Of a DNA stretch of 64,000 bases, positions 22,554 through 59,560 are shown one piece after another (position 1 is the stretch's first letter; each line of letters opens with the position of its first letter). The DNA is from an uncultured Phycisphaera sp. (GTDB lineage Bacteria > Planctomycetota > Phycisphaerae > UBA1845). Location: NCBI GenBank assembly GCA_964646605.1, contig CAZYEX010000137.1:35580-99579 (forward strand). Direction: 5' to 3'. Position numbers and translations under genes: made by a program. Under the pieces are notes generated by a model. That model had not been told where the DNA came from. It did not search any database and saw only the letters and a program-made list of their open reading frames with translations.

Positions 22554-23391
22554 TCACCATCTCGTTTTCCCCGCGCTTCTGCTCATCAGCACCGCCCCGA
22601 AGTGCATCACGTTGTACGCCAGCGCGGACCCCAACGCCACGCAACGCACTTCGGCCAACCCTCGAACCCTGAAGGCTCGCAAACCTCGGAACGTCGTCCG
22701 ATCCGCATGGACCGTCTCCGAAGTCGAAGCCCGCAGTTTGTAGATCGTCTTACCTGCCTCCGAGGTCATGCGCTTTCGCCAGGCAGCCACCCCCGGCGGA
22801 TCGCTCTTGTGCTCCGTACCCACCTGCCCTTGACCGCCCGTCGGGGACAGCGGCACGTACAGGGCCGCCCCCTTACTGGCGCGCTGGCTCGATCCCGTGG
22901 CGATGGAGGTATCCACCGTCCAGCAGATGTTCGTGGGGCATCTGCCCGGTTCGGCGTTGGATCTGCTCGCGCAGCGCTCTGTCCTCGCCGCGGTCACAAC
23001 CATGATGGGTGACGCCCATCGCCACAATCGCGCGGCTCTCCGTATCCGCAGCCATCGGAACGTTGTAGGCCGGATCGAAGCCCCCATGGCCCATCTTCAT
23101 CGTTCGGGCATCCGCATCGGTCGTCGAAGCCCGTGGTTCCCGATGCTTGGAGGGTTGGTCATCCCGCGGCTTGGCCTTGACCGCCTTCCAAACCGTGCGG
23201 GCCGGGTGATCGGCCGGGAGGCGATCCTCCAGACAACAGGGCTCCAGAGTCGTCGGTTGCCGATCCCGTCGTCGCACACGGGGCGCTGCGAAGCGGTTGT
23301 CGTTCACGCCCGCGCCGCCGCCGCAGGTCGCGGCGGCGACCACCCTTCCGGGAAATAATAAGGATGTCGTTTGCATGGCCCTAATATACAC
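22554..23391 (-). pseudogene. Frameshifted and truncated IS1182/IS5-family (DDE_Tnp_1) transposase remnant
   Basis: Two minus-strand ORFs in different frames: 22873-23391 carries the N-terminal motif LEDRLPADHPARTVWKAV and a DDE core (DADARTMKMGHGGFDPAYNVPMAADTESRAIVAMGVTHHGCDRGED...HLLDGGYLH). 22554-23087 carries the family's C-terminus (TIYKLRASTSETVHADRTTFRGLRAFRVRGLAEVRCVALGSALAYNVMHFGAV). Total length is far short of an intact transposase of about 450 aa. Confidence 0.65.
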
Positions 23392-23486
23392 GCCGCGTCA
23401 AGGAAATTTGTTCTCAAGCCCGGAGCGACGACTGAAGCACTCAGCCGTCCCTCCGGGACTCGGTGGGAACGCATTCACCCCCCCAG

Positions 23487-23619
23487 CCATAAAGGGCCTG
23501 TCGATTTAATCGAAATCGAGCGCCGGAAACGGCATGATCGATGGTCAATACCATGGTTTTCATTCTTGACAACCGTTTCGTGAAGGTGCAACGGGACTAA
23601 ATCGACAGGCCCTAAATGG
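23487..23619. repeat. Long inverted repeat (22-bp arms, 2 mismatches, 89-nt spacer); hairpin or MITE-like element immediately 5' of the group II intron
   Basis: ccataaagggcctgtcgattta ... taaatcgacaggccctaaatgg. Confidence 0.5.
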
Positions 23620-23622
23620 CTA

Positions 23623-24399
23623 GTGCGCCTGAAAGTGTACTTGACTTGTGGGGTGGAAGCCCCCATCGGGCATACGCTCTCCGGCCCGTAATCGAAGGTA
23701 ACGGCGTCGCCGCGAGGCGAGGTCGAGAGCAACCGGAGGTGAACCCTCGGTCCGTAGGATGATCCTTGACACGCTGCCGACGCTACGCGTTGCGGTGCAG
23801 GGCACCGGCGGGCGTAGCCCGCGCAGCGAGTCAAGGACGATTCGGCCGGGCGTGTTGGCGAGTCTGCTGGCCAATGACGAAGCCCAGACCTTTGCGAACG
23901 AGCAAAGGAAGCCTCGTACGCTGAGGGGTAGCGCGATAAAGCGATGCGAGGACGCGCCGGGTGGTTGGCGACGGAACGAGGGGAAGGTCGAGTACATGAA
24001 TCAGGGAGACCTGGCCGTCACGTGAGACGGCCAGGAGTCAGAGCGGCCATAGTAGCGAAGCAGCGGGGTAACGCCCGTGGAGCGAAGGGCCGTAGGAAGG
24101 CGGATTCGTGAAGGGCACCCCGCGGGAAGGGACACCGGCGACAGTGAACTCCGAGAGGAGTTCTAAACAAGCCGGAGACATTCGCGTCCGATGGGCGTGG
24201 GTGGAACCCGCGGTCGCGGGGCCGATCATCAACGCCGGCCGAACGTTTACTTCGCTACGGCAGGCCTCTTCACGATGGTGGAGGCCTATCGCCAGGCGCG
24301 TCAGTCTGTGGCAGTCCACTGACCGGAGAGCCGGATGCGGGAGATCCGCACGTCCGGTTCCGAGGGAGGAGGGACGCACTGCGTCCTTCCTACCCCTAT
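23623..24399 (+). mobile_element. ORF-less bacterial group II intron (ribozyme domains I-VI, no intron-encoded protein), about 777 nt
   Basis: 5' GTGCGCCTGAAAGTGTACTTGACTTG resembles group II 5' ends (GUGYG). Internal AGTAGCGAAGCAGCGGGGTAACGCCCGTGGAGCGAAGGGCCGTAG is recalled as matching a conserved domain II-III block of bacterial group II introns. Domain V GAGCCGGATGCGGGAGATCCGCACGTCCGGTTC with AGC triad at 24328-24360. Domain VI hairpin with bulged A at about 24392, 7 nt from the proposed 3' end. Domain IV is too short (<300 nt) for an RT/maturase. Confidence 0.7.
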
Positions 24400-24589
24400 T
24401 TTTCAGTGTGTCCCGCCGGGACACCGTCACGCACGACCGCCAAAATGTGGGTAACAGCAAGGCTCTACGGCCTGTCAGCGGAGATGGGCATGAACTACGC
24501 CGCGCCCGCCTATAAACACCCGCGCCAGGACGCGAGACGGTGTTCCATCGATCCGGTATGGACCCGCTCCCAGAGGGGAGAGGGTGGTC

Positions 24590-24713
24590 CCGGCGATGAT
24601 TGACGACCAGGTGATCCACGGCACCTGAACGACCCAGGTGGGCTGCTCTGTCTCCAGCCTGACCCGTTGCCTAGCTCATCCACTGCATGGGACCTGGTCG
24701 TCAATCATCGCCG
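24590..24713. repeat. Perfect 22-bp inverted repeat separated by 80 nt (second hairpin/MITE-like element)
   Basis: ccggcgatgattgacgaccagg ... cctggtcgtcaatcatcgccgg. Confidence 0.5.
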
Positions 24714-24976
24714 GCTGTGTCCGCAACCGCCGCACCTGCACGGCAACCAAGGAATCCTACCACGAAGCGCCGTGATCGGACAACTTGCCGGAGAATCCAC
24801 TTTGTCCGCTCGAAACGCAGGGTTCTTCCCAAGGTCCATCCGGCGACCGGCACACGCCGAGGGTTTCAGTCTCCGCGCCCCAGCGCCGACGGTCTGCTCG
24901 GATCACGCGTGTCTGCGGGCTTGCGCCAGCGGATCGGATGCGCAACGCCAACGCCCAGGCGGAGTGAGATGTACTA

Positions 24977-25468
24977 CTACGGGTTCAACAAGTCCGCGAT
25001 GGCCCCCGCGTCGACCGTCCCGTCGACTTGCGAACCGTCATCCGTCGACGGCACGTTAAAGTCGATCGGCACGCGCGGCGGCAGACCGGCCCGGAGACGA
25101 AGAGCGTTCTCAAATAAAAGGATCGCCCGGTTGAGTTGATCGAAAACGATCTCAATGGCGTCGACCAGGAAAGTCGCTTTGGGATCGGGACCGGCGAGGG
25201 GCTCGTCAATCTCGATGATCGAGCGCCCGAAATCCGCCGCCGCGAGCGTTCGGGCCACCCCCGCGCTCACCATGTTTCCAGGCGACCGCCCGGCTAGGGC
25301 CCCCGCCCCCACGTTACGAAGCGGGTTCTGCTCAGTGTTCAGGACTGGTGGAAACGCCGGTGCGACCTGACCGACCGCCAGAGATCCGAACGCCAGAACA
25401 ACGACCGTGCCCAACACCAAGCTTCGCTCGCAAGTCAAGCCGTGCATCATCAGTAATCTCCCGAGCAT
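24977..25468 (-). CDS. Hypothetical small secreted protein (about 163 aa)
   Basis: Start MLGRLLMMHGLTCERSLVLGTVVVLAFGSLAVGQ (signal peptide) preceded by a GGGAGGGAGGAAGGG Shine-Dalgarno-like tract. No family recognised. Confidence 0.4.
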   Translation of the reverse strand: MLGRLLMMHGLTCERSLVLGTVVVLAFGSLAVGQVAPAFPPVLNTEQNPLRNVGAGALAGRSPGNMVSAGVARTLAAADFGRSIIEIDEPLAGPDPKATFLVDAIEIVFDQLNRAILLFENALRLRAGLPPRVPIDFNVPSTDDGSQVDGTVDAGAIADLLNP

Positions 25469-25664
25469 CCCTTCCTCCCTCTCGCCCCCTGCCCGACCTA
25501 TTCTTATTCTTCGGCCAACCCGCCCCCGTGTCAATGTAAAAAACGGCGGAGGTCGCCCCTTCGACACCCTCCGTCCGAGCCCCATCCCGAGGCGTGCCCA
25601 CGGGGCGGCGGACGACGCTCCCGCAGGCCGTTGCCCCTCGTAGCCGACGCCTGGACGACCGGGA

Positions 25665-26021
25665 TCAGACGAACGGGTCATGAACGATCGCCTGGCCGCA
25701 GTAGATGCACTTGGGCAGGCGACGCGAGATGGTCCGGCGACATTTGGGGCAACTCACGGCCCCCTTGGTCACCTTCCCGTCCAGTCTTCCGTCGGACAAG
25801 TCCAGATCATTCATTCGCTGGGCCAGTTCCTCCTCACTGATGTTCAGCTTTTCGCGGACCAAGGTCCACAATGCTTCGACAGCGAGGACGGTTCGGTCCA
25901 GGCGGATGCCCACTTCGTCGGCGGCACGCTCCGATCGCCGCGAAGCGCCTTCCGCGGCCGCCGCCCCAACCGCCTCGCCCATGGTGAATGACGTGCCTCC
26001 CAAAAAACCGTACAAACTCAT
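25665..26021 (-). CDS. Small protein with C-terminal Cys4 zinc ribbon (CPKC...CIYC); last gene of the six-gene operon
   Basis: Start at MSLYGFLGG; 119 aa; 22 bp downstream of the SDR gene. Confidence 0.5.
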   Translation of the reverse strand: MSLYGFLGGTSFTMGEAVGAAAAEGASRRSERAADEVGIRLDRTVLAVEALWTLVREKLNISEEELAQRMNDLDLSDGRLDGKVTKGAVSCPKCRRTISRRLPKCIYCGQAIVHDPFV

Positions 26022-26043
26022 GGCGCTACTCGACCTTCCTTTC

Positions 26044-26757
26044 TCAGTCACCCGCCCGGCGTACGAAGACGGTTTGGCCCGTCGCGTATTGACACGCCGG
26101 CTGGGCAAGCGTGAAGACCATGTCGGCGACGTCCGACGGCTGCAAGGTCTGGGTGTCCGAAAAGGTCGGGAATGCGTCGCGGAGCATTCGCGTTTCGACG
26201 GCCCCTGGAGCCACGCTGAATACACGGATGCGACACTCCCGACCTTCCTCCGCCAGCCCCTTCGTCCACGCGTTGACCCAAGCCTTGGCCGCCCCGTAGG
26301 CCGCGAAACCGGGGAAGGGATCCACGGACGCGATGGACGAGATGTTGACGATCACCCCGCCGCCCTTGCCCTTCATCACCGGCCAAACACGACGACAGGT
26401 GCGATATACCGCCTCGACGTTGATCGACAGAATCTCGGAAAAACGCGCCGCGTCCAACTCCTCGATCGGGCACATCGGCGCCACACCCGCGCAGTTCACC
26501 AAGACGTCGATCCGTCCGAAGCATTTGGCGGTTTCATCCACCAGGGCGTCGATGTCCGCGGCGCGCGAGAGGTCGGTCGGACGCACGTCGCAGCGCCCGC
26601 CCGATTGCACGATCAACCGCTGGGTTTCTTCGAGTTCGCCGGAGGAGCGAGAGGCCGCGACAACTTGGCAACCCTCCGCGGCAAAGCGCTGGCAGATCGC
26701 CCGCCCGATTCCTCGTCCCCCGCCCGTCACCACGACCACACGCTCTGCCATGCCCAC
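26044..26757 (-). CDS. SDR-family short-chain dehydrogenase/reductase
   Basis: TGGGRGIGRAI Rossmann motif, NCAG, catalytic YxxxK (YGAAKAW). Confidence 0.85.
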   Translation of the reverse strand: MGMAERVVVVTGGGRGIGRAICQRFAAEGCQVVAASRSSGELEETQRLIVQSGGRCDVRPTDLSRAADIDALVDETAKCFGRIDVLVNCAGVAPMCPIEELDAARFSEILSINVEAVYRTCRRVWPVMKGKGGGVIVNISSIASVDPFPGFAAYGAAKAWVNAWTKGLAEEGRECRIRVFSVAPGAVETRMLRDAFPTFSDTQTLQPSDVADMVFTLAQPACQYATGQTVFVRRAGD

Positions 26758-26868
26758 CCCACTTTTCCCGGCGTTTCTCGGCTTGACTATGATAATTGCC
26801 GTAAGGCTGCGGTGTCCATTCCAAATTCGCGTCTCGTTTGGAATGCCGCCTCTGAACGGCGGACCCTC

Positions 26869-27459
26869 TCAGGCGGCGACGATTTTGCGCAGCTCGTCGA
26901 GTCGGCGAATGACGAAATCGGCCTGGGGGGCGTAGCTGGGCGGCGTTTGTTCGCCGATCATCAGCACGGTGCGCGTGCCGGCGCTTTTGCCGGAAAGAAT
27001 GTCGAAAAGATAGTCGCCGACCATCCAACTGCGCGCCGGGTCGGCGTGCAATTCCTCGCAGATGGAGAGCACCGGCGCGGCCGAAGGTTTGATCGCGCCA
27101 TCCTCGCGCGTACGGACGGCGTCCACGACGATGGCGAATCGACCAAGTATGAAGTCGACGACGGTGCGGGTGTTGCGGGTAAGAATGGCGATGGGATACC
27201 CCCCCGATCGCAAGTCATGCAGGACTTCGACGGCATCCTCGTACAGCGTCGCCTCCCGCGCCGCTTGCCATTCGTGCCGCGCGAGGACCTCGACGGCCCG
27301 GCCGCGATCGATGTCGTCCATGACCTCCAGCGCCTCCAAAATCGGCCCCTGGGCGATTCCGATTTCGCGGCGGATGGCGTCGAAATCCAGATAGGGGCGA
27401 GTGAGCGTGCCGTCGAGATCGAGGATCACCGCGGACCGATAGGGCGGTTGAGAATCCAT
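26869..27459 (-). CDS. HAD-superfamily hydrolase (phosphatase, PGP-like subfamily)
   Basis: Motif I ILDLDGTLT; motif III/IV region (MVGDYLFDILSGKSAG). Confidence 0.8.
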   Translation of the reverse strand: MDSQPPYRSAVILDLDGTLTRPYLDFDAIRREIGIAQGPILEALEVMDDIDRGRAVEVLARHEWQAAREATLYEDAVEVLHDLRSGGYPIAILTRNTRTVVDFILGRFAIVVDAVRTREDGAIKPSAAPVLSICEELHADPARSWMVGDYLFDILSGKSAGTRTVLMIGEQTPPSYAPQADFVIRRLDELRKIVAA

Positions 27460-27465
27460 GGCTGG

Positions 27466-28965
27466 TTACCGAAAGCGATACATGTTGGCCTGAGCGGGAT
27501 CGGCCAGCCCCACGAGGTTGTAGGGTGCGATGAGCTCACGTACCTGCGAATGGAACTCTCGCACATCTGGGGTCGGCGACCGGCGCTCGGATGACAAAGC
27601 GCGGACACTCTCATACGCCCTCTCGACCGCGGCGCGAAACCCACCGTCATGGGCCATGAGGAAGCCGTCGTGGTCGCCGTGCCAACCTCCTCGCCGGCGG
27701 TGTTCGCTGCACGTCGCCCCCGCGAAATAAAGCATCGAAAACGCGACCATGGGCTCGAAATCACGGAATCCGCAATAGCAACCGTGAATGATGGCGTCGA
27801 GCAGGTTGATCTCTCCCTTCAGCGAACGGTCGTACTCCTCCAGTCGTCGGGTGCGATCGGCGTCATCGCGCGATTCCGCGAGGATGCGGACCACACGCTC
27901 GATGCCCAGGAGCGTATGGGCGTTGCCCGCGCTATGCAGGGCGTCGAGGAAGTACGCGGTGTGCGGCAGCATCGCCCAGTTGCGCCCCGCGGCACGTTCC
28001 GCCCGTCGTTGCAACCGAGCCGTCCGTTGAAGCGGCTGCACGGGCCGCGCTTCGGCGAACTGCTCGGCGATCGACGGGAAGCGGCGAAGAAGCGTCGCCC
28101 ACTCATCTTCCGGCGACATCTCCGCATCGTCCTCAGAAAACCCATCCGGATTGCCGTCGAGCATGAATCCGGCGCTGGTAATTCCGTTGTCGAAGCGCAG
28201 CACCCACATCCAGCCCCCGTCGAAGACGTGGTGCAACGCGGCCGCATCGCACGGGAAGGGGTGATCGCCCGTCGCGCCGCCCAGCCGTTCATGGATATCG
28301 TGCCAGCGTCGAACGCCCCGGAAGTGAGAGAAAACCGCCCGCGAGTGCGTCCGCAGGTCGGTCGGCCTTACGGGGATATCCAAGTACGACGCCAATGCGC
28401 TCGCGGGGCCCGAGGCATCGACGACAAAGCCCGCGCGGACATGCAGAGGCGTTCCTTCTCGCGCGGCGACAATCCGCCAAGGATCATCGTCCGTCATGGA
28501 CTCGATGAGGGTCCGATCGAAGTACGGGATCGAGGCGGCCTGCACTTCGCGCACCAGAAAGTGATCCACCTCGGCGCGAAACCAGTGCGTGTCGCCGTTC
28601 TCCTCGTCGGGATTGGCCGCCACCAGCAACTCGTTGGCGTGGTCGGCGCTGGGCGCGAACGCCTCCCCGGCGCGGTGATGAAAGTAGCTGAAACCCCGCT
28701 TGAGACCGCAGGCGACGTCCGGGTACGTGCGTTTCCACGAACCATAGGATGTAAGCGGCAGCAACCGGGGCAAATCGTAACCTTGACAAAGTCCGCGAAG
28801 CACGAGGTCGGCTGTGGGCGTCGAGGACTCGCCGATGGCGAACCGCGGGTGCGTCCCGCGTTCGAGGAGCACAGGCCGCAGACCGATCCGTTGGCACAGC
28901 AGTGCGGTCAGGCTCCCCCCGAACCCACTGCCGATGATGGCCACGTCCGCGACGATCTCGGTCAA
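27466..28965 (-). CDS. FAD-dependent oxidoreductase of the tryptophan-halogenase-like family (halogenase fold; WxWxIP motif degenerate)
   Basis: N-terminal GxGxxG (VAIIGSGFGGS), AIGESSTP block, GWMWV region resembling, but not matching, the halogenase WxWxIP signature. Confidence 0.7.
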   Translation of the reverse strand: MTEIVADVAIIGSGFGGSLTALLCQRIGLRPVLLERGTHPRFAIGESSTPTADLVLRGLCQGYDLPRLLPLTSYGSWKRTYPDVACGLKRGFSYFHHRAGEAFAPSADHANELLVAANPDEENGDTHWFRAEVDHFLVREVQAASIPYFDRTLIESMTDDDPWRIVAAREGTPLHVRAGFVVDASGPASALASYLDIPVRPTDLRTHSRAVFSHFRGVRRWHDIHERLGGATGDHPFPCDAAALHHVFDGGWMWVLRFDNGITSAGFMLDGNPDGFSEDDAEMSPEDEWATLLRRFPSIAEQFAEARPVQPLQRTARLQRRAERAAGRNWAMLPHTAYFLDALHSAGNAHTLLGIERVVRILAESRDDADRTRRLEEYDRSLKGEINLLDAIIHGCYCGFRDFEPMVAFSMLYFAGATCSEHRRRGGWHGDHDGFLMAHDGGFRAAVERAYESVRALSSERRSPTPDVREFHSQVRELIAPYNLVGLADPAQANMYRFR

Positions 28966-28968
28966 GGG

Positions 28969-29886
28969 TCAGGCTCCGCACTCGCACCGAACCGCCGGCG
29001 ACACCCGCTGCGTTCGATTCATTTCCGCAAGTCGCTCGATCCGCCGCGCCCGGCACAGCCCGCAACCCGCAAGCAACTCCGCATCCCAAAGGTCCACAAA
29101 GACCCGTCCCCGCGCCAAGGACAGACCGAATTCGTGGACCGCCTCCATCGCCCGCAGATCGGGCCGGTGCATCTTGGCGTTGTTTTCGCTGCGCAGCGGC
29201 ACAATCGAGCAGCACTCCACGCCGATCGAGAACGCGTGCTCGATGCTCCGCTTCGCCCACGCCGTACCTTCATCGAGCGTCTGAAACGGCGCGGGAAGAA
29301 GTATAAACGCGCGAACCGGAATCCCGCGCCGGGACAAAAACGAGGTCGCCCGCTCAAAGTCCTCAAGCGTCATCCCCTTGTCGAGTCGGGGAAGAACACG
29401 CGGGTCGATCGTTTCCAGACCCATAGCCACTTGGAGCTGAGGACGAAGCTGATCGGCGAATTCCAGACACCGTCGATCGACGAGCTTGGGGTGGCATTCT
29501 ACGATGACGGTTTTGCGATCCTTCACCAATTCCGCAATTCGAGGCCGGTCGGCGCGAGGGACAGCCTGCTCATCGAAGAAGTTGCCCGAGTTGTAGAGCT
29601 TCATGTGCGGAGCAAACGGTAATTGCCGCAAGGCCCACTCCACCTGCCCCGCCACAGCGCCCGACGGCACCCGCTGCTCGGTCGTGTTCTTCCACAAATC
29701 GCAGAAAACGCAGCGAAACGGGCACTCCCTGTTGGTGATGAAAATCGTGGCCACGTCCTCCACGACGCCAGCCGCGGTGTACTCGGGTTCGACGAAGAAT
29801 GCGTAGGGACGAGTGGGGTCCACCACGTTGCGCGAACCGCGACGCCGGAGAACCGGCGGATCGTCGAGAAGGGAAGTCTCAGCCAT
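28969..29886 (-). CDS. Radical SAM enzyme (CxxxCxxC cluster motif)
   Basis: CPFRCVFCDLW near the N-terminus; about 305 aa core with a C-terminal CxxC...CxC extension. Confidence 0.75.
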   Translation of the reverse strand: MAETSLLDDPPVLRRRGSRNVVDPTRPYAFFVEPEYTAAGVVEDVATIFITNRECPFRCVFCDLWKNTTEQRVPSGAVAGQVEWALRQLPFAPHMKLYNSGNFFDEQAVPRADRPRIAELVKDRKTVIVECHPKLVDRRCLEFADQLRPQLQVAMGLETIDPRVLPRLDKGMTLEDFERATSFLSRRGIPVRAFILLPAPFQTLDEGTAWAKRSIEHAFSIGVECCSIVPLRSENNAKMHRPDLRAMEAVHEFGLSLARGRVFVDLWDAELLAGCGLCRARRIERLAEMNRTQRVSPAVRCECGA

Positions 29887-31210
29887 CGAAGGCGGCCTGG
29901 AATGCCCGGCGGTACGTCTGCGGCGATAGAGGAAAACGCTCGGTCAGAACAGCCACATCAAGCACGCCGTGTTGGAAACGCCGTTTCTCAAAGACGGGCA
30001 TCTTCAGACCCGTTACGGCCGCGACGCCCCGAGCGACGATCTCCCCTTTCAGTTGATACAAGCGATCGTGCCGCCAATTCGTCAGGGCGATGAACGGAAT
30101 CCGTTCCGCCACCTCGACGACGTCGGCCAGAGTAAACGGACTGAACGTGCGAAAACCCAGCGACCGCGCCGGAGCGAACGTCCGAGTACATGCGCGGCTC
30201 AGCCCGCCGCTGTAGACCAGCGAATGCTTGACCGAATCCACGCCCCAACCTTCCTGGTAAAGCAGCCGGTTGTTGAGCACGCTGCGGATGGTCAGCTCCG
30301 GGTTCTCCTCGATGGGATAGTCCTTGAGGTTCTCGTCCCCGCCGTCGCCGTCGATCAGATACGTCCAGTCGGGGTAGCGTCGGCGAATCCCACGGCAGAG
30401 TGCCAACATCATGGCCCCCGCTTGTACGTCCAGCGGTTTATAATCCTCGATCACCCGAACGGCCTCCTCCGGGTTCAACGCATCCTCGGGTACTTCGACC
30501 GTTTCCAGAAACATCCCCAGTTGTAGCGCGTCCAGAAACCGCCGGGCCTGCTCGACATCCCGCCCGCCGCCATTCGTGCAAAGCGTGAACGCCTTTAGCC
30601 GCGATGGGTCCAGCCCCATCGTGAGCATCAGGTGATACGTCAAAAGGAACACGGCCCCGCTGTCGATCCCGCCGGAAAAGCAGACTCCGATCGCAGCCCC
30701 GGGCGCAAGGGTTCGCAGCCACTTGGCGATCCCGTCCGCGGCGGCGGAGACGTAGCGACGACCGATGTCTTCCAAGTCCGTCGCAAGCGGATCGGGCGAG
30801 GGCGTGAGGTAGCGCCGATACGTGGGGTTGGGGTCCGGGCAGCCCAACAGGGCAATCTCGGTGATGTAATGGGCCGGAACCATCCGCGTATACGTGGGAT
30901 GGAACTGATCGCCGAGCCCTTCGCGCCGGGTCCACGCCGCAATCGCGTCGATGCGATGGGCGACGACGAGCGCCGGACCGTCGCTCCGTTTGGCGATGAA
31001 ATAGCGCATGGGCACGGACAAGGAGCGGGCCATGCGCACGGTCGCCCCCTCGCGCCCGACCAGGGCAAACGCCCCTTCGATTTTGCGAACCCCCTCGAAA
31101 TCACCCCTCCCCACGCGCGACCGCGCCTCGTCGAGCGAAACGTTGAAAAGAATGTTCGATGACGGGTCGGTGAGGTCCACAACCTCCCGAAGCGAGTGAA
31201 CGACTGGCAT
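29879..31210 (-). CDS. Asparagine-synthetase-like ATP-pyrophosphatase (PP-loop SGGxDS) lacking the N-terminal glutaminase cysteine
   Basis: Start at MPVVHSL (no Cys2 nucleophile). GVCFSGGIDSGAVF PP-loop. AsnB C-terminal-domain-like synthetase region. Confidence 0.75.
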   Translation of the reverse strand: MPVVHSLREVVDLTDPSSNILFNVSLDEARSRVGRGDFEGVRKIEGAFALVGREGATVRMARSLSVPMRYFIAKRSDGPALVVAHRIDAIAAWTRREGLGDQFHPTYTRMVPAHYITEIALLGCPDPNPTYRRYLTPSPDPLATDLEDIGRRYVSAAADGIAKWLRTLAPGAAIGVCFSGGIDSGAVFLLTYHLMLTMGLDPSRLKAFTLCTNGGGRDVEQARRFLDALQLGMFLETVEVPEDALNPEEAVRVIEDYKPLDVQAGAMMLALCRGIRRRYPDWTYLIDGDGGDENLKDYPIEENPELTIRSVLNNRLLYQEGWGVDSVKHSLVYSGGLSRACTRTFAPARSLGFRTFSPFTLADVVEVAERIPFIALTNWRHDRLYQLKGEIVARGVAAVTGLKMPVFEKRRFQHGVLDVAVLTERFPLSPQTYRRAFQAAFDG

Positions 31211-31313
31211 GCCTCGAACTCCTCCCTTGGTTTCTCGGAGAATGTTTCCAGACTCCCCCCCCTCCCAGAGAGAGGGTGGTCTGAAACAGTTTCTAAGAAA
31301 AGCCCAGCGCTGG

Positions 31314-32687
31314 TCAAGCGTGCTTGGGCGGCTGCGGTCCGCGCGTGGCGGACGCAACGGTGGACAATTCGCCCGTCGGCAGCGATCCGTCCATTCTTTC
31401 CGCGATGCTCCTGGTGAGCGAGCGCAGGTCGATGCCCAAGACCGATTCGAGCGTCGCCAGCGTTTCGGTAAGCATCCGTGCGCGGCCCAGGGCCGCGCCG
31501 GCGATCGCCTGACCGCTGCCGCTGTCGATCACAGTGACGTGGCCCAATTGGACGTTGGAGATGGTCTTGGTGATTTCTTGAACGACCCCGGGAAGCATTT
31601 CCGCGAGCATGACTTTCAGGGCGTCGGGGTTCCGGGAGATGGCTTGTCCGATGCACTCGATCGCCGCAGCCCGGGCCTTGCCTTCTTCGAGGACCGTCGC
31701 AGCCGCCCCCTCCGCACTGGCCTTCGCGGCGTCGCGATCGGCGTTGGCCTTTTTCACCAGGGTGGCCAAGAGCCTCGCCTCCTCGGCCTGAGCCGCGGCG
31801 GTCTGTGCCTCCGCCTCCTTGATGGACGCCTCCCGGGACAACTCCGCCTGTCGAATGCGCAGAAGGTTGTTCGCTTCGGCGATGGTCTTGTCGGCACCCA
31901 GACGGGCCGACTCGGATTTCTGACGTCCCGTCGCCTCCGCCGTGCGAGCCTCGGCGTCACGCTCCGCCTTCGCCCGACGGGCCAAAGCCTCGGACTCGGC
32001 CTCCTTGATGTCCGCATCGGACTTGCGCTGGGCCTCGAACTGCCGGGCGCTGGCACGCACATCCGCCGACGCCTTGCGGGCGATCGACTCCAAGTACTGG
32101 TCGTCGTCATGCACGTTCTGGATGTTCACGCTGTCGATGACCATGCCCAGCTTGCGAAAATCGTCGGTCACCTCGTTCATCACCGTGGCCACGAATTTGT
32201 CGCGGTCCTCGACGATCTCCTCCGGAGTCATCTTCCCGATCACCGCCCGCAGCCCGCCCTCCAGCGTCTCCCGCGCCACCCGCTCCATCTCCTGCTGCGG
32301 TTCGCCGAGGAACCGCTCGATCGCGTTGCCGCGGATGTCCGGATCGGACGACACCTTGACGTTGGCCACGCCGTTCACGTTGACGGGGATCATCTTCCCC
32401 CCCCCGGACTGGGCCTTGACCTCCAGGGCCACCTGCATGTTGCGCAGACTCAGCAGGGCCACCTTTTCGAGGATCGGGATCACCACCGTGCGTCCGCCGA
32501 TCAACGTTCGGTAACCCATCGTCGGACTGGAACTGCGCCCGCTGATCACCAGAAGCTCGCTGGGGTTGCCCACCACGGTGAACTTCGCCACCAGAGCGAT
32601 GAACGTCGCCAGGACGAACAAGACGCCCACGCCGATCATGATGCCCGTCCCGACCACGTCCGATTGACTCAACATCCACGCGCTCAT
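31314..32687 (-). CDS. Flotillin / SPFH (band-7) family protein
   Basis: N-terminal TM, SPFH domain, long Ala/Glu-rich coiled coil (flotillin-type EA repeats). Confidence 0.85.
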   Translation of the reverse strand: MSAWMLSQSDVVGTGIMIGVGVLFVLATFIALVAKFTVVGNPSELLVISGRSSSPTMGYRTLIGGRTVVIPILEKVALLSLRNMQVALEVKAQSGGGKMIPVNVNGVANVKVSSDPDIRGNAIERFLGEPQQEMERVARETLEGGLRAVIGKMTPEEIVEDRDKFVATVMNEVTDDFRKLGMVIDSVNIQNVHDDDQYLESIARKASADVRASARQFEAQRKSDADIKEAESEALARRAKAERDAEARTAEATGRQKSESARLGADKTIAEANNLLRIRQAELSREASIKEAEAQTAAAQAEEARLLATLVKKANADRDAAKASAEGAAATVLEEGKARAAAIECIGQAISRNPDALKVMLAEMLPGVVQEITKTISNVQLGHVTVIDSGSGQAIAGAALGRARMLTETLATLESVLGIDLRSLTRSIAERMDGSLPTGELSTVASATRGPQPPKHA

Positions 32688-33328
32688 GCGTTTTCTCCCG
32701 ACTTGGGTTCGTTTACGAATTCGTATTCTTCCTTGGACACAACTTCCGCCACGCCGTTGCTCAGCCCCACCACCACCACGCGATCCCCGACCTTGAAGCG
32801 ATCATCCCCGCGCCGCGCCACCGCGGCGAGGAAGCGCTCTCCATTCCTCGAGGGCAACGCGACCTCCCCGCGTCGAGAAGCCTCCAGGGCGATGGTCACG
32901 CGGGCCGCTTTGTTGAGATAATCGTCCGGGGTCAGGTCGCTTCCGACCCCCGATCGTTTCAACGCCCGAAGCGCCTGATGGACGAGTTGCCCCACCACCA
33001 GTGCCCCGATCGTGGCACACGCCAGCACCACCCCGGAGCGAACCCGGGCCACGTAGGTCAGGGTCGTCCCGAGAAGCCCGAAGGTGACCAGGAAGTAGAC
33101 GGCGAACTGCATCGAGAACCAACTCGACAGCGACAGCCCGTGTCCACCGTGGTGCTCCGTATCCACCCCGTGATGAAGGTCGCCCCCCGCGTGGGCGTCC
33201 ATTCCCATGCCCCCGGAAAGGTCGGCATGAACGTCGGTGCCGCCGTGACTGCCGAACAGCACGGAGAGCAGCAACAGCCCGCCGCCCACGATCAGGGCGA
33301 TGATGTACAACATAGCCACCGTGGACAT
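32684..33328 (-). CDS. NfeD-like membrane protein (flotillin partner, YqiJ-like, C-terminal OB-fold)
   Basis: N-terminal TM helices, His-rich loop, C-terminal OB-like domain; overlaps the flotillin start by 4 nt. Confidence 0.7.
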   Translation of the reverse strand: MSTVAMLYIIALIVGGGLLLLSVLFGSHGGTDVHADLSGGMGMDAHAGGDLHHGVDTEHHGGHGLSLSSWFSMQFAVYFLVTFGLLGTTLTYVARVRSGVVLACATIGALVVGQLVHQALRALKRSGVGSDLTPDDYLNKAARVTIALEASRRGEVALPSRNGERFLAAVARRGDDRFKVGDRVVVVGLSNGVAEVVSKEEYEFVNEPKSGENA

Positions 33329-33529
33329 CGTTCATGCCTCCGCCGCCGCGCGAACTCCCGTCCCTGCGGCCACCCTCTGGAACGCGATCTGCAACCAACC
33401 CAGGCGCCCCCGCGCCCTAGCTACTGCATAGCGTACAACGTTCCAGCCCTACGGCCAGTAGAATCCGGGCGATCTTCTCGAATCGCCGCAGCTTCACATG
33501 TGTTTTTCGGTACGGCGGCCCGAAGTAGG

Positions 33530-33742
33530 GGAGGGCAAAGATCCTCTTTGCCCAGATCAGCGGAACGAAAAGATCCTCTTCGCACGGGAGGGCGAAGACC
33601 CTCTTTGCCGGGCGAACGCAACGATCCTGTTTGGTATGTGTTTAGTGCCTTTCTCCCCAACAGGGCGGCGGGTCTGCCGGGGAGGGCAAAGATCCTCTTT
33701 GCCCAAGGCACGGAAAAACCACGGTCTACTTTGGTATGTGAG
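33530..33742. repeat. Array of four palindromic hairpin repeats (two perfect GGGAGGGCAAAGATCCTCTTTGCCC copies, two degenerate) in two tandem composite units, each ending CTTTGGTATGTG; upstream of the nfeD-flotillin operon
   Basis: Seen directly: 9-bp stem GGGCAAAGA/TCTTTGCCC with TCC loop at 33534-33555 and 33685-33706. Variants at about 33567-33586 and 33589-33616. Confidence 0.55.
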
Positions 33743-33899
33743 CGGCATGGGCTCCAACGGCCCGACGAATGTAGCCGGCGGCCAAGCAAAGCGCGACCCC
33801 TTGACGACGCACGCCCAAGTCCGGTGAAACAGGTGCGCGCACCCGCCGTTACCATTGGTTCACATCGGAAAAGCAACCCCGCGCCCCTGCCCAACCCGT

Positions 33900-35207
33900 C
33901 TACGGCTTCTTCGGGAAATCGGGTTGGCGGCCTTGCGGAGTATTGAGGAGATCGATCACTTCGCTCAATCGAGCGTTGAGGGCGTCGATCTTGCGCTCGA
34001 TTTCCTCCACCTTATCACTGGTCTCTCCTACCGTCACCTGGAGAGCGTCGACCTTGCCATCGATTACCCCCACCCGTCCATCCGTTACGTCCAGTTGGAC
34101 CTCGGTCCGATCGGCCGTTGCCTTGATGTCACTCTGTTGGGCGGCCGTTTGCTCTTGGCATTGAAGCGACTTGTCAAAGCCTGCTTGCGTCAACACGTCG
34201 TCCGTATACGTCCAGCCGTCTTTGATTATTTGAGCTATCCCCTTCGCGGCGGCCAGCACCACACCACCGGCCGAGCAGTTGTTGCCCACGATATCCTGAT
34301 TGCAACCGGAGTCAAACATATCGTAGGCCGCACTAAGGACATCCGTTACAAGGCTTAATGCTAGCGTTACGACATCGCGCACCCCGGTGAGTATTTCGCT
34401 GCAATTGTCACCGCTTCCGGAACTGCTCGCGAGAGCTTCCTTGGCGTGAGCGAAGGCCCTCAGGCCCGCTGCCACCTTCTGATTCGTTTCCGCCAAGGCG
34501 CTCTCTGCGTGCTCGAGCGACTGTTCCATGTCCGCGGCGGCTTCGTCGTCGAAGTTGTCGTCATCTTGATCGTTCGAAGGACTCTCACAGATCTCCACGC
34601 AAACTTCCTTTGGGTTTCCCGTTGTCTTGCAAATGCCGTCGTTGTCGCCAATCCCGTCCCCGAGGACCTCCGCGCAGGTCTCCTTAATGCCGCCCCGATT
34701 GGTGCACACACCGTCGTTATTGCCGTCGTCAGAAGGGGCGCGTGAACCATCGGGATTGAGGGGCTTGTCATACTCTTGCACGTAACAATTGCTCTTCTGT
34801 TTACGGCCGATTCCTTTGAAGCCGCCCGCCTCCTTGCTGCGTTTCCGTGCGTTTTCACCGTGGGCACGCATGTTCTCCAAGTTTCTCTTCTGCGTATCGG
34901 TGAAAATGCCGTCCGATGCGCAAGCCTGATCCACCAAGGTGGACAACTCGACGTTCAGGTTTTCGGTCCTGCAATCGATCCGCTCGTTGATCTTTTCCGC
35001 TTTGCTCCTGTTGTCGTTGTCCGGTTGCGCGTTGCAATCCCGCTTTGGGGGGCGAACCGAGGCCGGGGACCGTTCCTGGCCCATCACCGGCGCCGCGACT
35101 CCAAAAACCAGAACCACAGCGAGCGCCGATCGACGGGCACGCGAGCCCGACCGCACGATCCCACCTCGTGAGGTGCGCAAAGTCGATGTGTTGGGTAGAA
35201 GTTTCAT
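33900..35207 (-). CDS. Hypothetical secreted Cys- and Asp/Asn-rich protein with C-terminal coiled coil
   Basis: Signal peptide (ALAVVLVFGVAAPVMGQE); repeated DNDG(V/I)C...ETC(A/V)E modules; lower GC and Lys/Asn/Asp-rich composition. Confidence 0.5.
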   Translation of the reverse strand: MKLLPNTSTLRTSRGGIVRSGSRARRSALAVVLVFGVAAPVMGQERSPASVRPPKRDCNAQPDNDNRSKAEKINERIDCRTENLNVELSTLVDQACASDGIFTDTQKRNLENMRAHGENARKRSKEAGGFKGIGRKQKSNCYVQEYDKPLNPDGSRAPSDDGNNDGVCTNRGGIKETCAEVLGDGIGDNDGICKTTGNPKEVCVEICESPSNDQDDDNFDDEAAADMEQSLEHAESALAETNQKVAAGLRAFAHAKEALASSSGSGDNCSEILTGVRDVVTLALSLVTDVLSAAYDMFDSGCNQDIVGNNCSAGGVVLAAAKGIAQIIKDGWTYTDDVLTQAGFDKSLQCQEQTAAQQSDIKATADRTEVQLDVTDGRVGVIDGKVDALQVTVGETSDKVEEIERKIDALNARLSEVIDLLNTPQGRQPDFPKKP

Positions 35208-57011: not shown

Positions 57012-58499
57012 CTACGACGGCGGCGAAATGCTGAGCGTGCGGACTTCAATGGCGACCACGGGCGACGGGCCGTCGAAGAGCACGGTGTCGGATCCCAGCG
57101 TGCGGTCCACCGGCGGGGGGAAAACCCACACGGAACGGAGAAGCTCCTCCGGATCGGGAGGGTTGTTCCAATCGGAGTCCGTACACTCCTCACAATGTGG
57201 ATCTCCCTCTGAAATGTCGATGTCTTCCTGTACGATTTCGCGGTCCAGCGTGAGCACGGCCTTTTCGCCGTTGGCGTCAACGATGCGGCGCCTCGTGACA
57301 CGGTAGATGTGCCCCTCAAGTTCATCCACGAACGTGGTCCCCGAAGGGAACATCGAAACCAGCATCGCCGCCGGTTTGCCTGCGATCGTGTCAGGAGGGA
57401 CCCGGATTTCCGACGGGACGTGGGTCGGGCGTTTTGGTGAGTCGTCCGGGGCGCTGCGATACGCGAGCGAACTAGGAAGCTCAACCTGGACCCGCCAGGC
57501 GACGGGTAGCAACACGTCATTGTCGCCATTGAGGGCCGCCGGCGACACGGGGACTGCGGGGCGTTCGAACTTGTACGGATCGGGAACGAGCTGGTCGTTC
57601 TGGCGGGCGTAGCGGTGCGTGCTCTGCGTGCGCCGCAACGTGACGTAATACAGGTCAAAGTTTCGCGTCGAGCCGATGGCGGCGGCAGCTTCGACCACCA
57701 ATTCGAGCGATTGTTCCGGAGTGATCGCGGGGGGCGTTCGCGGACGGGCGGGTCCCGCCGGTTGGCGAAGGCGATGCAGCGCTGCCCAAAAGAACTTTCG
57801 GTTGGACAGAAGGTCTCGCCAGCGGTCGTCCAACGGCGGGTAGCTGCGATCGGCCACGTTCACCTGCGGGAAGTAGAACGAGGCTTGTTGCCTGAAGCGA
57901 TCGCTCAAATTCACATCCTTTTCGGGGTCGTCACACGGAGGGTAGGCGGGATCCAGAAGATTGGTGACCTGCTCGAGTCGCCAAGGGTCCTCGGCAACAG
58001 TCTGGCCGTTGCTCAACCGCACGTTCCACATGTTTAATGCATGGACGCGGGTATCGCTGTAAAGGAGGATGCTGCAGAACGCATCCTCCGGTTTGTTCTC
58101 GCTGATGAACTCCTTGGCGAGTTGACGATCATAGAACAAATCCCCGGCGAGACTCCCGGAGTGGATCGCGGGTTCTTCGAATGGCGGACCGTCGCTCGGG
58201 TCCTTGATGGCCACCATACGGACGCCCGCCGGGCGCAGCAGGGCCTCGAGCGTGGCCCGGGCGGCGGCGGTGGTGGATTGCTCGATGGTGTGTTCGCTGA
58301 GGGTCCGGGCCCGATCCCAGGCTACGGGGAACATCGTGGCGACCATGATCAATCCCAGACCCAGAATCACGATGGCGATCATCATCTCGACAAGGGAAAA
58401 GGCACGACCATCAGAGCACCAGGCGCAAGCCTGGTGACACTGCGGAGGCGTGTCCGCGGGCTCGCGCCCGCGGCTCTGATGTGCTATACGCTGCTTCAT
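57012..58499 (-). CDS. Prepilin-type N-terminal cleavage/methylation-domain protein (pseudopilin-like), long leader
   Basis: DGRAFSLVEMMIAIVILGLGLIMVA class-III signal/N-methylation motif after a 31-aa leader; 495 aa. Confidence 0.7.
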   Translation of the reverse strand: MKQRIAHQSRGREPADTPPQCHQACAWCSDGRAFSLVEMMIAIVILGLGLIMVATMFPVAWDRARTLSEHTIEQSTTAAARATLEALLRPAGVRMVAIKDPSDGPPFEEPAIHSGSLAGDLFYDRQLAKEFISENKPEDAFCSILLYSDTRVHALNMWNVRLSNGQTVAEDPWRLEQVTNLLDPAYPPCDDPEKDVNLSDRFRQQASFYFPQVNVADRSYPPLDDRWRDLLSNRKFFWAALHRLRQPAGPARPRTPPAITPEQSLELVVEAAAAIGSTRNFDLYYVTLRRTQSTHRYARQNDQLVPDPYKFERPAVPVSPAALNGDNDVLLPVAWRVQVELPSSLAYRSAPDDSPKRPTHVPSEIRVPPDTIAGKPAAMLVSMFPSGTTFVDELEGHIYRVTRRRIVDANGEKAVLTLDREIVQEDIDISEGDPHCEECTDSDWNNPPDPEELLRSVWVFPPPVDRTLGSDTVLFDGPSPVVAIEVRTLSISPPS

Positions 58500-59560
58500 G
58501 GCGTTGTTTTCGCCACCGTTTCGCCGATCGGTCCGCGGATGACGACCCCGCTGATGCGATGCACGTAGAACGGCTGGGCCGAGTCGATCAGGAACTTCCG
58601 TTTCTGGCCCGGGTCCCCCGCGGCCGCAAACAAGGATTCGTCGTACACCAACAGTCCGTCAACCGAGGGGAAGTTCAGGGCCGTCCCCTCGCTCTCCGCC
58701 ACCAAGTCGACGTCCTCGATGCTCTTGTCGGGGTTGATCGGAAGCTCGCCCTTGCTGTTGTCCTGCCGGTAGTATTTCTTGATATCGTCGCGGACCTCCA
58801 ACCCCGTTAGGTCGCCGCCGCGGTTCTCCGCAGCGTCGGCGTCCAGGTCGCGGATGAGCACGTCGCGGCGCACGATCAGTTCGCCCGTCGCGGAATACAT
58901 CACGGTGAAGAAGTTGCGATGCCGCTGGGCCTGATCGGTGTCGGCGTTGGCCGGGGAGAAAAGGTCGCTATGGGCGAGTTCATCGGGATCGAAGCGCCGC
59001 GTCTTGTCGGGTTCCGTCTTTTCATCGTAGACCGCGTAGCGCGGCACGACGCGCATGGGAGCGGGAAGCGAGTAGCTGCGCTCGGGCACCACGTTGAACA
59101 CGTTTGCCCACGCCTCCCGGGTGCCTGGATCGTCGTCCAGCGTGACCTGCTCTATGGCCATGATGCGCTGCACGCCTTCGCCGTCCAGAAAAAAGAACAA
59201 ACCGCTTTCGTTCCCCACCAGCAGCGTCCGTTTGTTACCCGCGCTATCGGTGATGAACAGCGGTTCCCTTTGCGCTTCGCCCGACTGCAAGGCCCGGGCC
59301 CGCGCCGTCATGAATACGCCGCTGATCGTGTTTTGGGCTTCGGCGATGCGCCGATCGCGCCACATGGTGCTGGCCGCCGGAACCACCATCGTGAGCAGGG
59401 CGACGACGATGGCGACGACGATGACCATCTCGACGAGCGTAAAGGCCGAAGTTCGAAGTCCGAAGTTCGAAGTTCGAAGACCGCATCCGCCATTCACGGA
59501 CTCAACGGCGCCTCGCCCTTTTCCGAACTTTGAACTTTGAACTTTGAACTTCATGTTCAC
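58496..59560 (-). CDS. Prepilin-type N-terminal-domain protein (pseudopilin-like)
   Basis: SAFTLVEMVIVVAIVVALLTMVVPA after a 38-aa leader whose codons are heptamer repeats (KFKVQSSKF ... LRTSNFGLRTS). GTG start. Confidence 0.75.
   Translation of the reverse strand: MNMKFKVQSSKFGKGRGAVESVNGGCGLRTSNFGLRTSAFTLVEMVIVVAIVVALLTMVVPAASTMWRDRRIAEAQNTISGVFMTARARALQSGEAQREPLFITDSAGNKRTLLVGNESGLFFFLDGEGVQRIMAIEQVTLDDDPGTREAWANVFNVVPERSYSLPAPMRVVPRYAVYDEKTEPDKTRRFDPDELAHSDLFSPANADTDQAQRHRNFFTVMYSATGELIVRRDVLIRDLDADAAENRGGDLTGLEVRDDIKKYYRQDNSKGELPINPDKSIEDVDLVAESEGTALNFPSVDGLLVYDESLFAAAGDPGQKRKFLIDSAQPFYVHRISGVVIRGPIGETVAKTTP

What the first reader, a model, noticed from the sequence alone, without database searches (positions are those of the whole stretch)
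23623..24399. Roughly 777-nt ORF-less group II intron sitting 3 nt after a long hairpin, in a decayed mobile-DNA patch
The segment starts GTGCGCC, carries an internal block (AGTAGCGAAGCAGCGGGGTAACGCCCGTGGAGCGAAGGGCCGTAG) that I recall as matching a conserved domain II-III stretch of bacterial group II introns, has a textbook domain V (GAGCCGGATGCGGGAGATCCGCACGTCCGGTTC with AGC triad) and a domain VI with a bulged A 7 nt from the 3' end. Domain IV is only about 250 nt, so no reverse transcriptase/maturase is encoded. ORF-less group II introns are uncommon in bacteria and need a trans-acting IEP, and none is visible in this window. Its 5' junction lies 3 nt after a 22-bp-arm hairpin, reminiscent of class IIC introns that target stem-loops. 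A group II-like ribozyme that survives here without its protein is a good candidate for either a domesticated RNA or a recently decayed intron.
Basis: partly seen in the sequence, partly recalled or inferred. Interest (0 to 1): 0.7.

Follow-up and report, generated by a model that had tools for sequence, protein, structure and literature searches.

The report
ORF-deleted class IIC group II intron
This is a real but ordinary bacterial group II intron of the hairpin-targeting IIC type. It has lost its reverse-transcriptase gene through a 1.1-kb deletion and carries a second lesion in its catalytic scaffold, so it is most likely a decaying mobile-element relic and not a new functional RNA.

Summary
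Window 23623-24399 (+) is a 777-nt group II intron. Rfam RF00029 matches DV/DVI at 54.7 bits. The ends (GUGCGCC...CCCCUAU) are those of a family of about 1.85-1.95-kb introns recovered from genomes and metagenomes. About 81% of that family's insertion sites lie 0-5 nt after a stem-loop. The relatives' proteins have RT and maturase domains only and match the solved IIC reverse transcriptases best. This is class IIC behaviour.

The closest relatives (L148, L134; 92-97% identical) are full-length, 1,836 nt, with an open 451-codon reading frame. Compared with them, the window copy lacks 1,129 nt of that gene. The deletion lies between two CGCGGT repeats and leaves about 40 N-terminal and 37 C-terminal codons, out of frame.

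EBS1 (UGGCCA) pairs 6/6 with the 5' exon (UGGCUA). 95 of 98 consensus DI-DIII pairs are intact. DV is identical to the parent's.

A unique 76-nt hairpin replaces CGAACG in the near-invariant kappa bulge of DI and breaks two pairs. No RT gene lies elsewhere in the 64 kb. The deletion junction has no match in the metagenome collection.

Verdict: observation confirmed, a new member of a known kind, probably a recently decayed copy, low interest.

The parts
23485..23621 (+). Target stem-loop of the 5' exon: imperfect inverted repeat with 27-nt arms and 83 nt between them, ending 1 nt before the intron
   Evidence: the repeat finder I1. RNA fold -69.9 kcal/mol, z = -6.4. Family-wide, a stem ends 0-5 nt before the insertion site in 81% of sites.
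23494..23612 (.). Putative 119-nt MITE-like insert inside the target hairpin. It has perfect 15-bp terminal inverted repeats (GGGCCTGTCGATTTA / TAAATCGACAGGCCC) flanked by direct TAAA repeats (23490-23493 and 23613-23616). Removing it leaves a small hairpin, AGCCA-TAAA-TGGCT.
   Evidence: Read directly from the sequence. This is inference only: no second copy was found in the window, the fetched loci or the plasmid collection.
23617..23622 (+). IBS1 (UGGCUA), the last 6 nt of the 5' exon
   Evidence: Pairs 6/6 with EBS1.
23623..24399 (+). The whole 777-nt ORF-less class IIC group II intron (GUGCGCC...CCCCUAU)
   Evidence: Tandem copies in L122 show ...CCCCTAT|GTGCGCC as the exact family boundaries.
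23623..24005 (+). Domain I
   Evidence: Family alignment A1 and its RNAalifold consensus: 98 pairs, 73 with compensatory changes. Columns were mapped to window coordinates.
23763..23838 (+). 76-nt hairpin (TCCTTGAC...GTCAAGGA) that replaces CGAACG of the near-invariant DI bulge G-GAUGA-C-GAA-C (the kappa element and its extension loop). It breaks 2 of the 3 bp of the adjoining helix.
   Evidence: Absent from the 97%-identical parent-like copies. Unique among 34 aligned family members. Broken pairs are A1 columns 228-408 and 229-407. No other copy was found. The kappa assignment rests on the O. iheyensis GAACA loop and kappa described in PMC3575829 and on my recalled O.i. sequence.
23868..23873 (+). 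EBS1 (UGGCCA)
   Evidence: This alignment column covaries with the last 6 exon nt in 32 relatives: mean 5.25 of 6 pairs against 2.56 +/- 0.22 in 2000 shuffles.
24010..24035 (+). Domain II, a 10-bp hairpin
   Evidence: One pair shows a compensatory change against the parent-like copy (UA against CG).
24036..24093 (+). J2/3 (AGUCAGA, invariant across the family) and domain III
24094..24327 (+). Domain IV, about 233 nt, made of IEP-gene remnants. N-terminal remnant about 40 codons (24096-24215, frame 0). C-terminal remnant about 37 codons (24203/24209-24319, frame 2). Stop codon TGA at 24320-24322.
   Evidence: tblastn with family IEPs and with the L148 IEP: aa 1-40 at 80% identity and aa 415-451 at 92%.
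24209..24214 (+). Deletion junction. A single CGCGGT remains where the parent-like element has two copies 1,129 nt apart.
   Evidence: Three-way alignment with L148 and L134. Coordinates checked.
24328..24360 (+). Domain V, with the AGC triad. It is identical to DV of the ORF-containing L148 and L134.
24363..24397 (+). Domain VI, with the bulged branch-point A at 24392
   Evidence: RF00029 alignment.
23447..23459 (+). Flanking small palindrome GTCCCTCCGGGAC. It lies in a roughly 40-nt stretch (23419-23460) that is 91% identical to the 5' flank of L148.
24410..24422 (+). Flanking small palindrome GTCCCGCCGGGAC. It lies in the roughly 55-nt 3' flank (24400-24454) that is about 90% identical to the 3' flanks of L134 and L148.

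Best explanation
The segment is a non-autonomous deletion derivative of a class IIC (bacterial class C) group II intron retroelement.

Shown:
- An approximately 1,836-nt parent inserted 1 nt after a stem-loop whose 3' strand supplies IBS1 (UGGCUA), the usual IIC mode.
- One illegitimate recombination or slippage event between two CGCGGT repeats removed 1,129 nt of the RT/maturase gene.
- The DIV base and the ribozyme domains were left in place.
- The copy also acquired a 76-nt hairpin that overwrites the conserved kappa bulge of domain I.

Inferred:
- With no protein of its own it cannot move or splice efficiently unaided.
- With kappa damaged, docking of the catalytic domain V is probably impaired.
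- It is therefore most likely an immobile, recently decayed relic sitting in a patch of repeats and IS debris.
For: - Intron identity: RF00029 at 54.7 bits. The termini match the family termini.
- Family structure: 98 consensus DI-DIII pairs, 73 with compensatory changes. The window keeps 95 of them.
- IIC behaviour: a stem of at least 6 bp ends within 5 nt of the site in 81% of 135 sites, against 39% in the control. Copies also insert head-to-tail after DVI of another copy.
- IEP type: the parent IEP has RVT_1 and GIIM only. Its best matches among solved structures are GsI-IIC RT (7e-69) and the E. rectale IIC maturase.
- Cognate site: EBS1/IBS1 pairs 6/6, and the family shows strong covariation there.
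- Deletion: L148 and L134 are 92-97% identical and full length, with an open 451-codon frame. The junction shows CGCGGT microhomology. The IEP remnants are out of frame.
- Second lesion: unique among 34 relatives, in a near-invariant motif, and it breaks 2 bp. The motif corresponds to the kappa region that docks D5 (PMC3575829).
- No IEP lies elsewhere in the 64 kb.
- The junction 24-mer has no match in the metagenome collection.
Against: - Apart from the lesion, the ribozyme looks healthy. DV is identical to the parent's. All substitutions at paired positions relative to L127, other than the two in the lesion-broken pairs (228-408, 229-407), keep the pairing. EBS1 still matches the exon.
- The DIV 5' part survives. 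In other group II introns this part holds the IEP binding site, so a trans-acting IEP elsewhere in the genome could still act on the copy.
- Whether the hairpin in the kappa bulge abolishes catalysis has not been tested.
- Only 64 kb of the genome was visible.
Confidence: 0.7

Rival explanations
1. It is a still-functional non-autonomous intron. A related IIC intron elsewhere in the same genome supplies the RT/maturase in trans. This copy still splices and may even retrohome, as reported for ORF-less introns in cyanobacteria.
For: - The ribozyme helices are intact (95 of 98 pairs). DV is identical to the parent's. EBS1/IBS1 pairs 6/6.
- About 120 nt of 5' DIV is retained.
- Published ORF-less bacterial introns nearly always coexist with related IEP-encoding copies, and trans splicing has been shown experimentally (PMC4424553).
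- 8 of 68 complete family copies in my sample are ORF-less with all ribozyme domains present.
Against: - The unique 76-nt replacement of the kappa GAA bulge breaks 2 bp.
- The deletion junction has no second copy in the metagenome scan.
- No IEP lies in the window.
Confidence: 0.25
2. It is a domesticated ribozyme or structured RNA that the host keeps for a new function, for example processing or terminating a transcript next to the SRP RNA gene.
For: Only circumstantial. It is highly structured (z = -7.4) and lies 200 nt from the SRP RNA gene.
Against: - This ORF-less form was not found conserved anywhere else.
- The nearest relatives are ordinary mobile copies in unrelated flanks.
- The lesions look like random decay: a microhomology deletion, and an insertion in a conserved core motif.
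- The surroundings are IS debris and repeats.
Confidence: 0.04
3. It is not an intron at all, only a chance DV-like hairpin in GC-rich DNA.
For: None beyond the fact that DV is short.
Against: Full-length homology (DI through DVI) to dozens of ORF-containing group II introns, with matching termini and a covarying EBS1.
Confidence: 0.01

Closest known systems
Class IIC (bacterial class C) group II introns, e.g. O. iheyensis O.i.I1, B. halodurans B.h.I1, GsI-IIC
   Same: - GUGYG...AY termini, compact DI-DIII (about 400 nt in the family), and a simple-hairpin DII.
- Insertion just downstream of a stem-loop, with a short IBS1 taken from the 3' strand of the stem.
- The relatives' IEP has RT and maturase domains without an endonuclease domain and matches IIC RTs best.
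- The kappa-region motif G-GAUGA-C-GAA-C resembles the O.i. G-GAACA-C-GAA-C as I recall it.
   Different: - This copy has no IEP.
- It has an AGC triad (O.i.I1 has CGC, from my own knowledge).
- The target stem is a 137-nt long-range inverted repeat, not a short terminator hairpin.
- The kappa bulge is overwritten by a 76-nt hairpin.
ORF-less bacterial group II introns (the category in the Zimmerly database; Simon et al. 2008; the T. elongatus ORF-less introns of Mohr et al. 2010, PMC2882425)
   Same: A ribozyme without an IEP, derived from an ORF-containing relative, with IEP remnants left in DIV. It is expected to depend on a trans-acting IEP (PMC4424553).
   Different: - Those cases are documented alongside related IEP-encoding copies in the same genome. 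That could not be checked here.
- The T. elongatus introns are IIB/CL, not IIC.
- This copy carries an extra core lesion.
Group IIC-attC introns (e.g. S.ma.I2)
   Same: They belong to the IIC lineage and insert at imperfect inverted repeats 57-141 bp long, a range that includes this 137-nt repeat.
   Different: The flanking repeat has no RYYYAAC / GTTRRRY core sites and no integron context (direct reading).

Membership tests
Group II intron (Rfam RF00029 plus the D1-D4 clan) | Domain V/VI covariance-model match above the gathering score | tested here: met
   54.7 bits against 40, over the full model.
Group II intron (Rfam RF00029 plus the D1-D4 clan) | GUGYG 5' end, AY 3' end, and a bulged branch A in DVI | tested here: met
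   GUGCG at 23623...CUAU ending at 24399, branch A at 24392.
Group II intron (Rfam RF00029 plus the D1-D4 clan) | DI-DIII architecture supported by covariation | tested here: met
   The family consensus has 98 pairs, 73 with compensatory changes, and the window forms 95 of them. The Rfam D1D4-1 match alone is sub-threshold at 25.9 against 35.
Group II intron (Rfam RF00029 plus the D1-D4 clan) | Self-splicing or IEP-assisted splicing activity | not testable with these tools
   Needs RT-PCR or an in vitro assay.
Class IIC / bacterial class C | Insertion immediately downstream of a stem-loop (terminator-like or palindromic motif) | tested here: met
   In the window the stem ends 1 nt before the intron. 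Across the family, 81% of 135 sites against 39% in the control.
Class IIC / bacterial class C | IEP of the class C lineage, without DNA-binding or endonuclease domains | tested here: inconclusive
   The window copy has no IEP. The 92-97% identical parent-like L148 encodes RVT_1 and GIIM only, and its best solved-structure matches are IIC RTs. No IEP phylogeny against classes D, E and F was made.
Class IIC / bacterial class C | Exon recognition by a short EBS1-IBS1 (and EBS3-IBS3), with no EBS2-IBS2 | tested here: inconclusive
   EBS1-IBS1 is shown. Absence of EBS2 and presence of EBS3 were not tested.
Group IIC-attC introns | Target is an integron attC site with RYYYAAC / GTTRRRY core sites | tested here: not met
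   The arms read AGCCATAAAGGGCC... / ...GGCCCTAAATGGCT, with no AAC/GTT cores. No integrase gene is nearby.
ORF-less bacterial group II introns | No IEP ORF in domain IV | tested here: met
   DIV is about 233 nt. Only about 40 N-terminal and 37 C-terminal IEP codons remain, out of frame.
ORF-less bacterial group II introns | All ribozyme domains intact | tested here: inconclusive
   DI-DVI are present and 95 of 98 helix pairs are kept, but the kappa bulge is replaced by a 76-nt hairpin.
ORF-less bacterial group II introns | A related IEP-encoding intron in the same genome, able to act in trans | not testable with these tools
   None in the 64-kb window.

The most novel reading that the evidence does not exclude
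ORF-less IIC introns may not be rare dead ends. They may be a recurrent, persistent class of non-autonomous retroelements, mobilised in trans much like SINEs or MITEs.

- In this family, 8 of 68 complete copies keep all ribozyme domains but lack the ORF.
- Several have near-identical breakpoints (after ...VKGG(K)W and before RWPNAFF) in different sub-clades and in MAGs labelled as different phyla.
- On this reading the window copy, hairpin included, would be a living member whose kappa extension has simply been expanded.
Probability: 0.12. Interest if true: 0.45.

Novelty: new member of a known kind. Interest (0 to 1): 0.22.

Why it matters
It matters little in itself. It is a clean, datable example of how a bacterial IIC retroelement decays: one microhomology deletion removes the RT gene, and a second hit lands in the kappa core motif.

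It is of modest use as an annotation lesson, because RT-based searches miss such copies. It also adds a data point on how often ORF-less IIC derivatives arise. In my small, biased sample the figure was about 12% of complete copies, whereas the 2015 review calls them rare in bacteria.

Tried and rejected
- attC / IIC-attC target: rejected because the repeat has no core sites.
- Plasmid collection, distant blastn with the intron: only DV and one 73-nt DI block matched, so there is no close relative there.
- Plasmid search with the 137-nt inverted repeat: no match.
- Exact-protein look-ups of spurious ORFs across the intron (24038-24619 minus strand, 24108-24515 plus strand, 23620-23997 minus strand), meant to find the source contig or other copies: nothing on record.
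- The sigma-factor and SDR look-ups also failed.
- The HAD-protein look-up found only one contig, a Logan contig from run SRR9952630. It is 100% identical to window 24600-34789 and stops 200 nt short of the intron.
- Junction-specific 24-mer in metagenomes: 0 hits.
Copy number and the presence of an IEP in this genome therefore remain unknown.
- A weak tblastn hit at 58781-59278 (E = 0.006): dismissed, because that frame contains a stop codon and the opposite-strand ORF 58496-59560, which overlaps it, is the likelier gene (high third-position GC; weak N_methyl motif, E 0.014, below Pfam's cutoff).
- A sub-threshold L31-Actinobacteria leader match at 23293-23344: treated as chance.
- The idea that L017, L053, L079 and L136 form one ORF-less lineage: not adopted. 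Their DI and DIII sequences place them in different sub-clades that also contain ORF-bearing members, so recurrent deletion is at least as likely.

Full report
**1. Observation**

The sequence at 23623-24399 begins GTGCGCC and ends CCCCTAT.

- Rfam's Intron_gpII model (RF00029) matches 24326-24399 end to end at 54.7 bits, against a gathering score of 40. The only other gathering-level match in the window is the SRP RNA at 24602-24699 on the minus strand.
- The 777 nt fold far better than shuffles (z = -7.4).
- No ORF inside has a Pfam match.
- An imperfect inverted repeat lies directly upstream. Its arms are 23485-23511 and 23595-23621, 27 nt long, 89% complementary and 83 nt apart, and it ends 1 nt before the intron.
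- A DDE transposase fragment lies at 22554-23087 on the minus strand.

**2. Relatives and class**

A second pattern returned 27 metagenome loci.

- BLAST against these loci shows a family whose full-length members are 1,842-1,951 nt. They have the same termini (GTGCGCC...ACCCCTAT) and an IEP ORF of about 440-500 codons.
- The IEP of the closest relative has RVT_1 and GIIM domains and nothing else.
- Among solved structures it matches the IIC enzymes best: GsI-IIC RT at 7e-69 and the E. rectale IIC maturase at 2e-67. T.el4h scores 2e-46 and LtrA 9e-43 (similar results).
- 81% of 135 distinct insertion sites have a stem of at least 6 bp ending 0-5 nt before the 5' splice site, against 39% in a control window.
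- Several copies sit head-to-tail directly after DVI of another copy (L122, L108, L050).

Insertion after terminator-like stem-loops is the hallmark of IIC introns (PMC4424553). I did not build an IEP tree against classes D, E and F, so the class C assignment rests on this behaviour and on the nearest solved homologues.

**3. Ribozyme anatomy**

I aligned DI-DIII of the window with 33 relatives (A1). The RNAalifold consensus has 98 pairs, 73 of them with compensatory changes.

- The window forms 95 of the 98 pairs, which places it in the better third of the family.
- The six alignment columns that are UGGCCA in the window (23868-23873) covary with the last six exon nucleotides. The mean is 5.25 of 6 pairs, against 2.56 +/- 0.22 in 2,000 shuffles (maximum 3.41). 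These columns are EBS1.
- The window's EBS1 pairs 6/6, including one G-U pair, with UGGCUA at 23617-23622. The copy therefore sits at a cognate site.
- J2/3 (AGUCAGA) is invariant across the family.
- DV is identical to that of the ORF-containing L148 and L134.

**4. How the ORF was lost**

L148 (332-2167), L134 and the partial L127 are 97%, 92% and 92.6% identical to window intron positions 1-136, 216-592 and 587-777. The full-length copies (L148, L134) measure 1,836 nt and carry an open 451-codon reading frame.

- The three-way alignment shows that the window lacks 1,129 nt.
- The parent-like sequence reads ...GAACCCGCGGT|GTGGTC... on the N-terminal side of the deleted block and ...GGTCGCGGT|CGCGGGGCC... 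on the C-terminal side.
- The window has a single CGCGGT at 24209-24214. This is a 6-nt microhomology deletion.
- tblastn finds the remnants. IEP residues 1-40 match at 80% identity (24096-24215, frame 0). Residues 415-451 match at 92% (24209-24319, frame 2), followed by the original stop codon at 24320.
- The two remnants are out of frame, so no mini-protein is encoded.
- No other RT-like sequence occurs in the 64 kb.

**5. A second lesion**

Relative to L148, L134, L127 and all 30 other aligned relatives, the window has a 76-nt hairpin at 23763-23838 (TCCTTGAC...GTCAAGGA).

- The hairpin replaces CGAACG in the near-invariant bulge G-GAUGA-C-GAA-C of the ID stem.
- It destroys two of the three base pairs of the adjoining helix, at A1 columns 228-230 and 406-408.
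- The motif lines up with O. iheyensis G-GAACA-C-GAA-C. The O.i. sequence is from my memory. The 'GAACA' loop capping the kappa extension, and the role of kappa in docking D5, are described in PMC3575829.
- In other relatives, large insertions occur only in peripheral loops of DI, DII and DIII, and never at this position.
- No second copy of the inserted hairpin was found.

I infer, but cannot show, that this lesion impairs catalysis.

All the other substitutions at paired positions relative to L127 preserve pairing. That fits a young lesion on a recently functional background.

**6. Surroundings**

- The target stem has an internal 119-nt segment (23494-23612) with perfect 15-bp terminal inverted repeats and flanking TAAA direct repeats. 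Removing it leaves AGCCA-TAAA-TGGCT-A|, a small hairpin like those used by relatives. This looks like a MITE insertion, but I found no second copy.
- The only two GTCCCNNNGGGAC palindromes in the window bracket the intron, at 23447 and 24410.
- About 40 nt upstream and 55 nt downstream are roughly 90% identical to the flanks of L148 and L134, but homology stops there. The intron therefore sits in a repeated, REP-like hairpin cluster and not at a syntenic locus.

**7. Interpretation**

The best reading (0.7) is a recently decayed, non-autonomous IIC copy.

The main rival (0.25) is that it is still spliced or mobilised by a trans IEP encoded elsewhere in the genome. Published ORF-less bacterial introns are nearly all accompanied by related IEP-encoding copies (PMC4424553). 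The intact helices, the matching EBS1 and the retained 5' DIV would allow this. The kappa lesion argues against it, and so does the absence of any other copy of the junction in the metagenome collection.

Domestication has no support.

**8. Novelty**

ORF-less bacterial group II introns are a catalogued category (PMC3245105, PMC4424553, PMC8919778). This is a new member of a known kind.

One side observation may deserve a proper census. In my biased sample of 68 complete family copies, 13 are shorter than 1.3 kb, and 8 of those keep all ribozyme domains. Several have similar breakpoints in different sub-clades.

Noticed in passing
window 24590-24714 (- strand): The SRP RNA (RF00169, 53 bits, 24602-24699) is enclosed by a perfect 23-nt inverted repeat (24590-24612 / 24692-24714). 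This makes a roughly 125-nt hairpin, 200 nt downstream of the intron and convergent with it. A terminator-like site at 24536-24519 (- strand) follows it.
   Followed up: partly
window 23490-23616: A putative 119-nt MITE (perfect 15-bp terminal repeats GGGCCTGTCGATTTA, flanking TAAA direct repeats) sits inside the loop of what would otherwise be a 5-bp hairpin, AGCCA-TAAA-TGGCT. No second copy was found in the window, the fetched loci or the plasmid collection.
   Followed up: partly
window 23419-23460 and 24400-24454; L148, L134, L127, L149, L065: The only two GTCCCNNNGGGAC palindromes in the window flank the intron. The short flanks are about 90% identical to the flanks of the closest relatives in unrelated contigs. 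This suggests the sub-lineage homes into a REP-like repeated hairpin cluster.
   Followed up: partly
L122 3772-5674 and 5675-7577; L108 around 1477; L050 2714-4662 and 4663 onwards: Head-to-tail tandem intron copies (...CCCCTAT|GTGCGCC). A second copy appears to have used domain VI of the first as its target stem-loop.
   Followed up: no
L017, L053, L079, L120, L136, L137, L149 (also L022, L031, L066, L075, L118): 13 of 68 complete family copies are shorter than 1.3 kb, and 8 of them (counting the window copy) keep DI-DIII and DV-DVI. L017, L053, L079 and L136 have near-identical breakpoints (after ...VKGG and before (W)PNAFF) although they belong to different sub-clades. This could be a recurrent deletion hot spot or survivorship.
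   Followed up: partly
window 22554-23087 (- strand), and ORFs up to 23391: A C-terminal DDE_Tnp_1_6 (IS5/IS1182-type) transposase fragment. The neighbouring ORFs have no Pfam match. This is a decayed IS next to the intron.
   Followed up: partly
L123 (Logan contig from run SRR9952630) = window 24600-34789: A public short-read assembly contig is 100% identical to the window and ends at 24600, inside the SRP RNA stem and 200 nt from the intron. The same organism is therefore present in that run.
   Followed up: partly
window 58496-59560 (- strand): A 354-aa ORF has a weak prepilin-type N-terminal methylation motif (E = 0.014, below the Pfam cutoff). From my own knowledge, many Planctomycetota and Verrucomicrobiota proteins look like this. 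Together with the Planctomycetota MAGs among the closest DI matches, it hints at the host phylum.
   Followed up: no
window 23293-23344 (+ strand): A sub-threshold match to the L31-Actinobacteria ribosomal leader (25.4 bits against 35), in a GC-rich stretch. It is probably chance.
   Followed up: no
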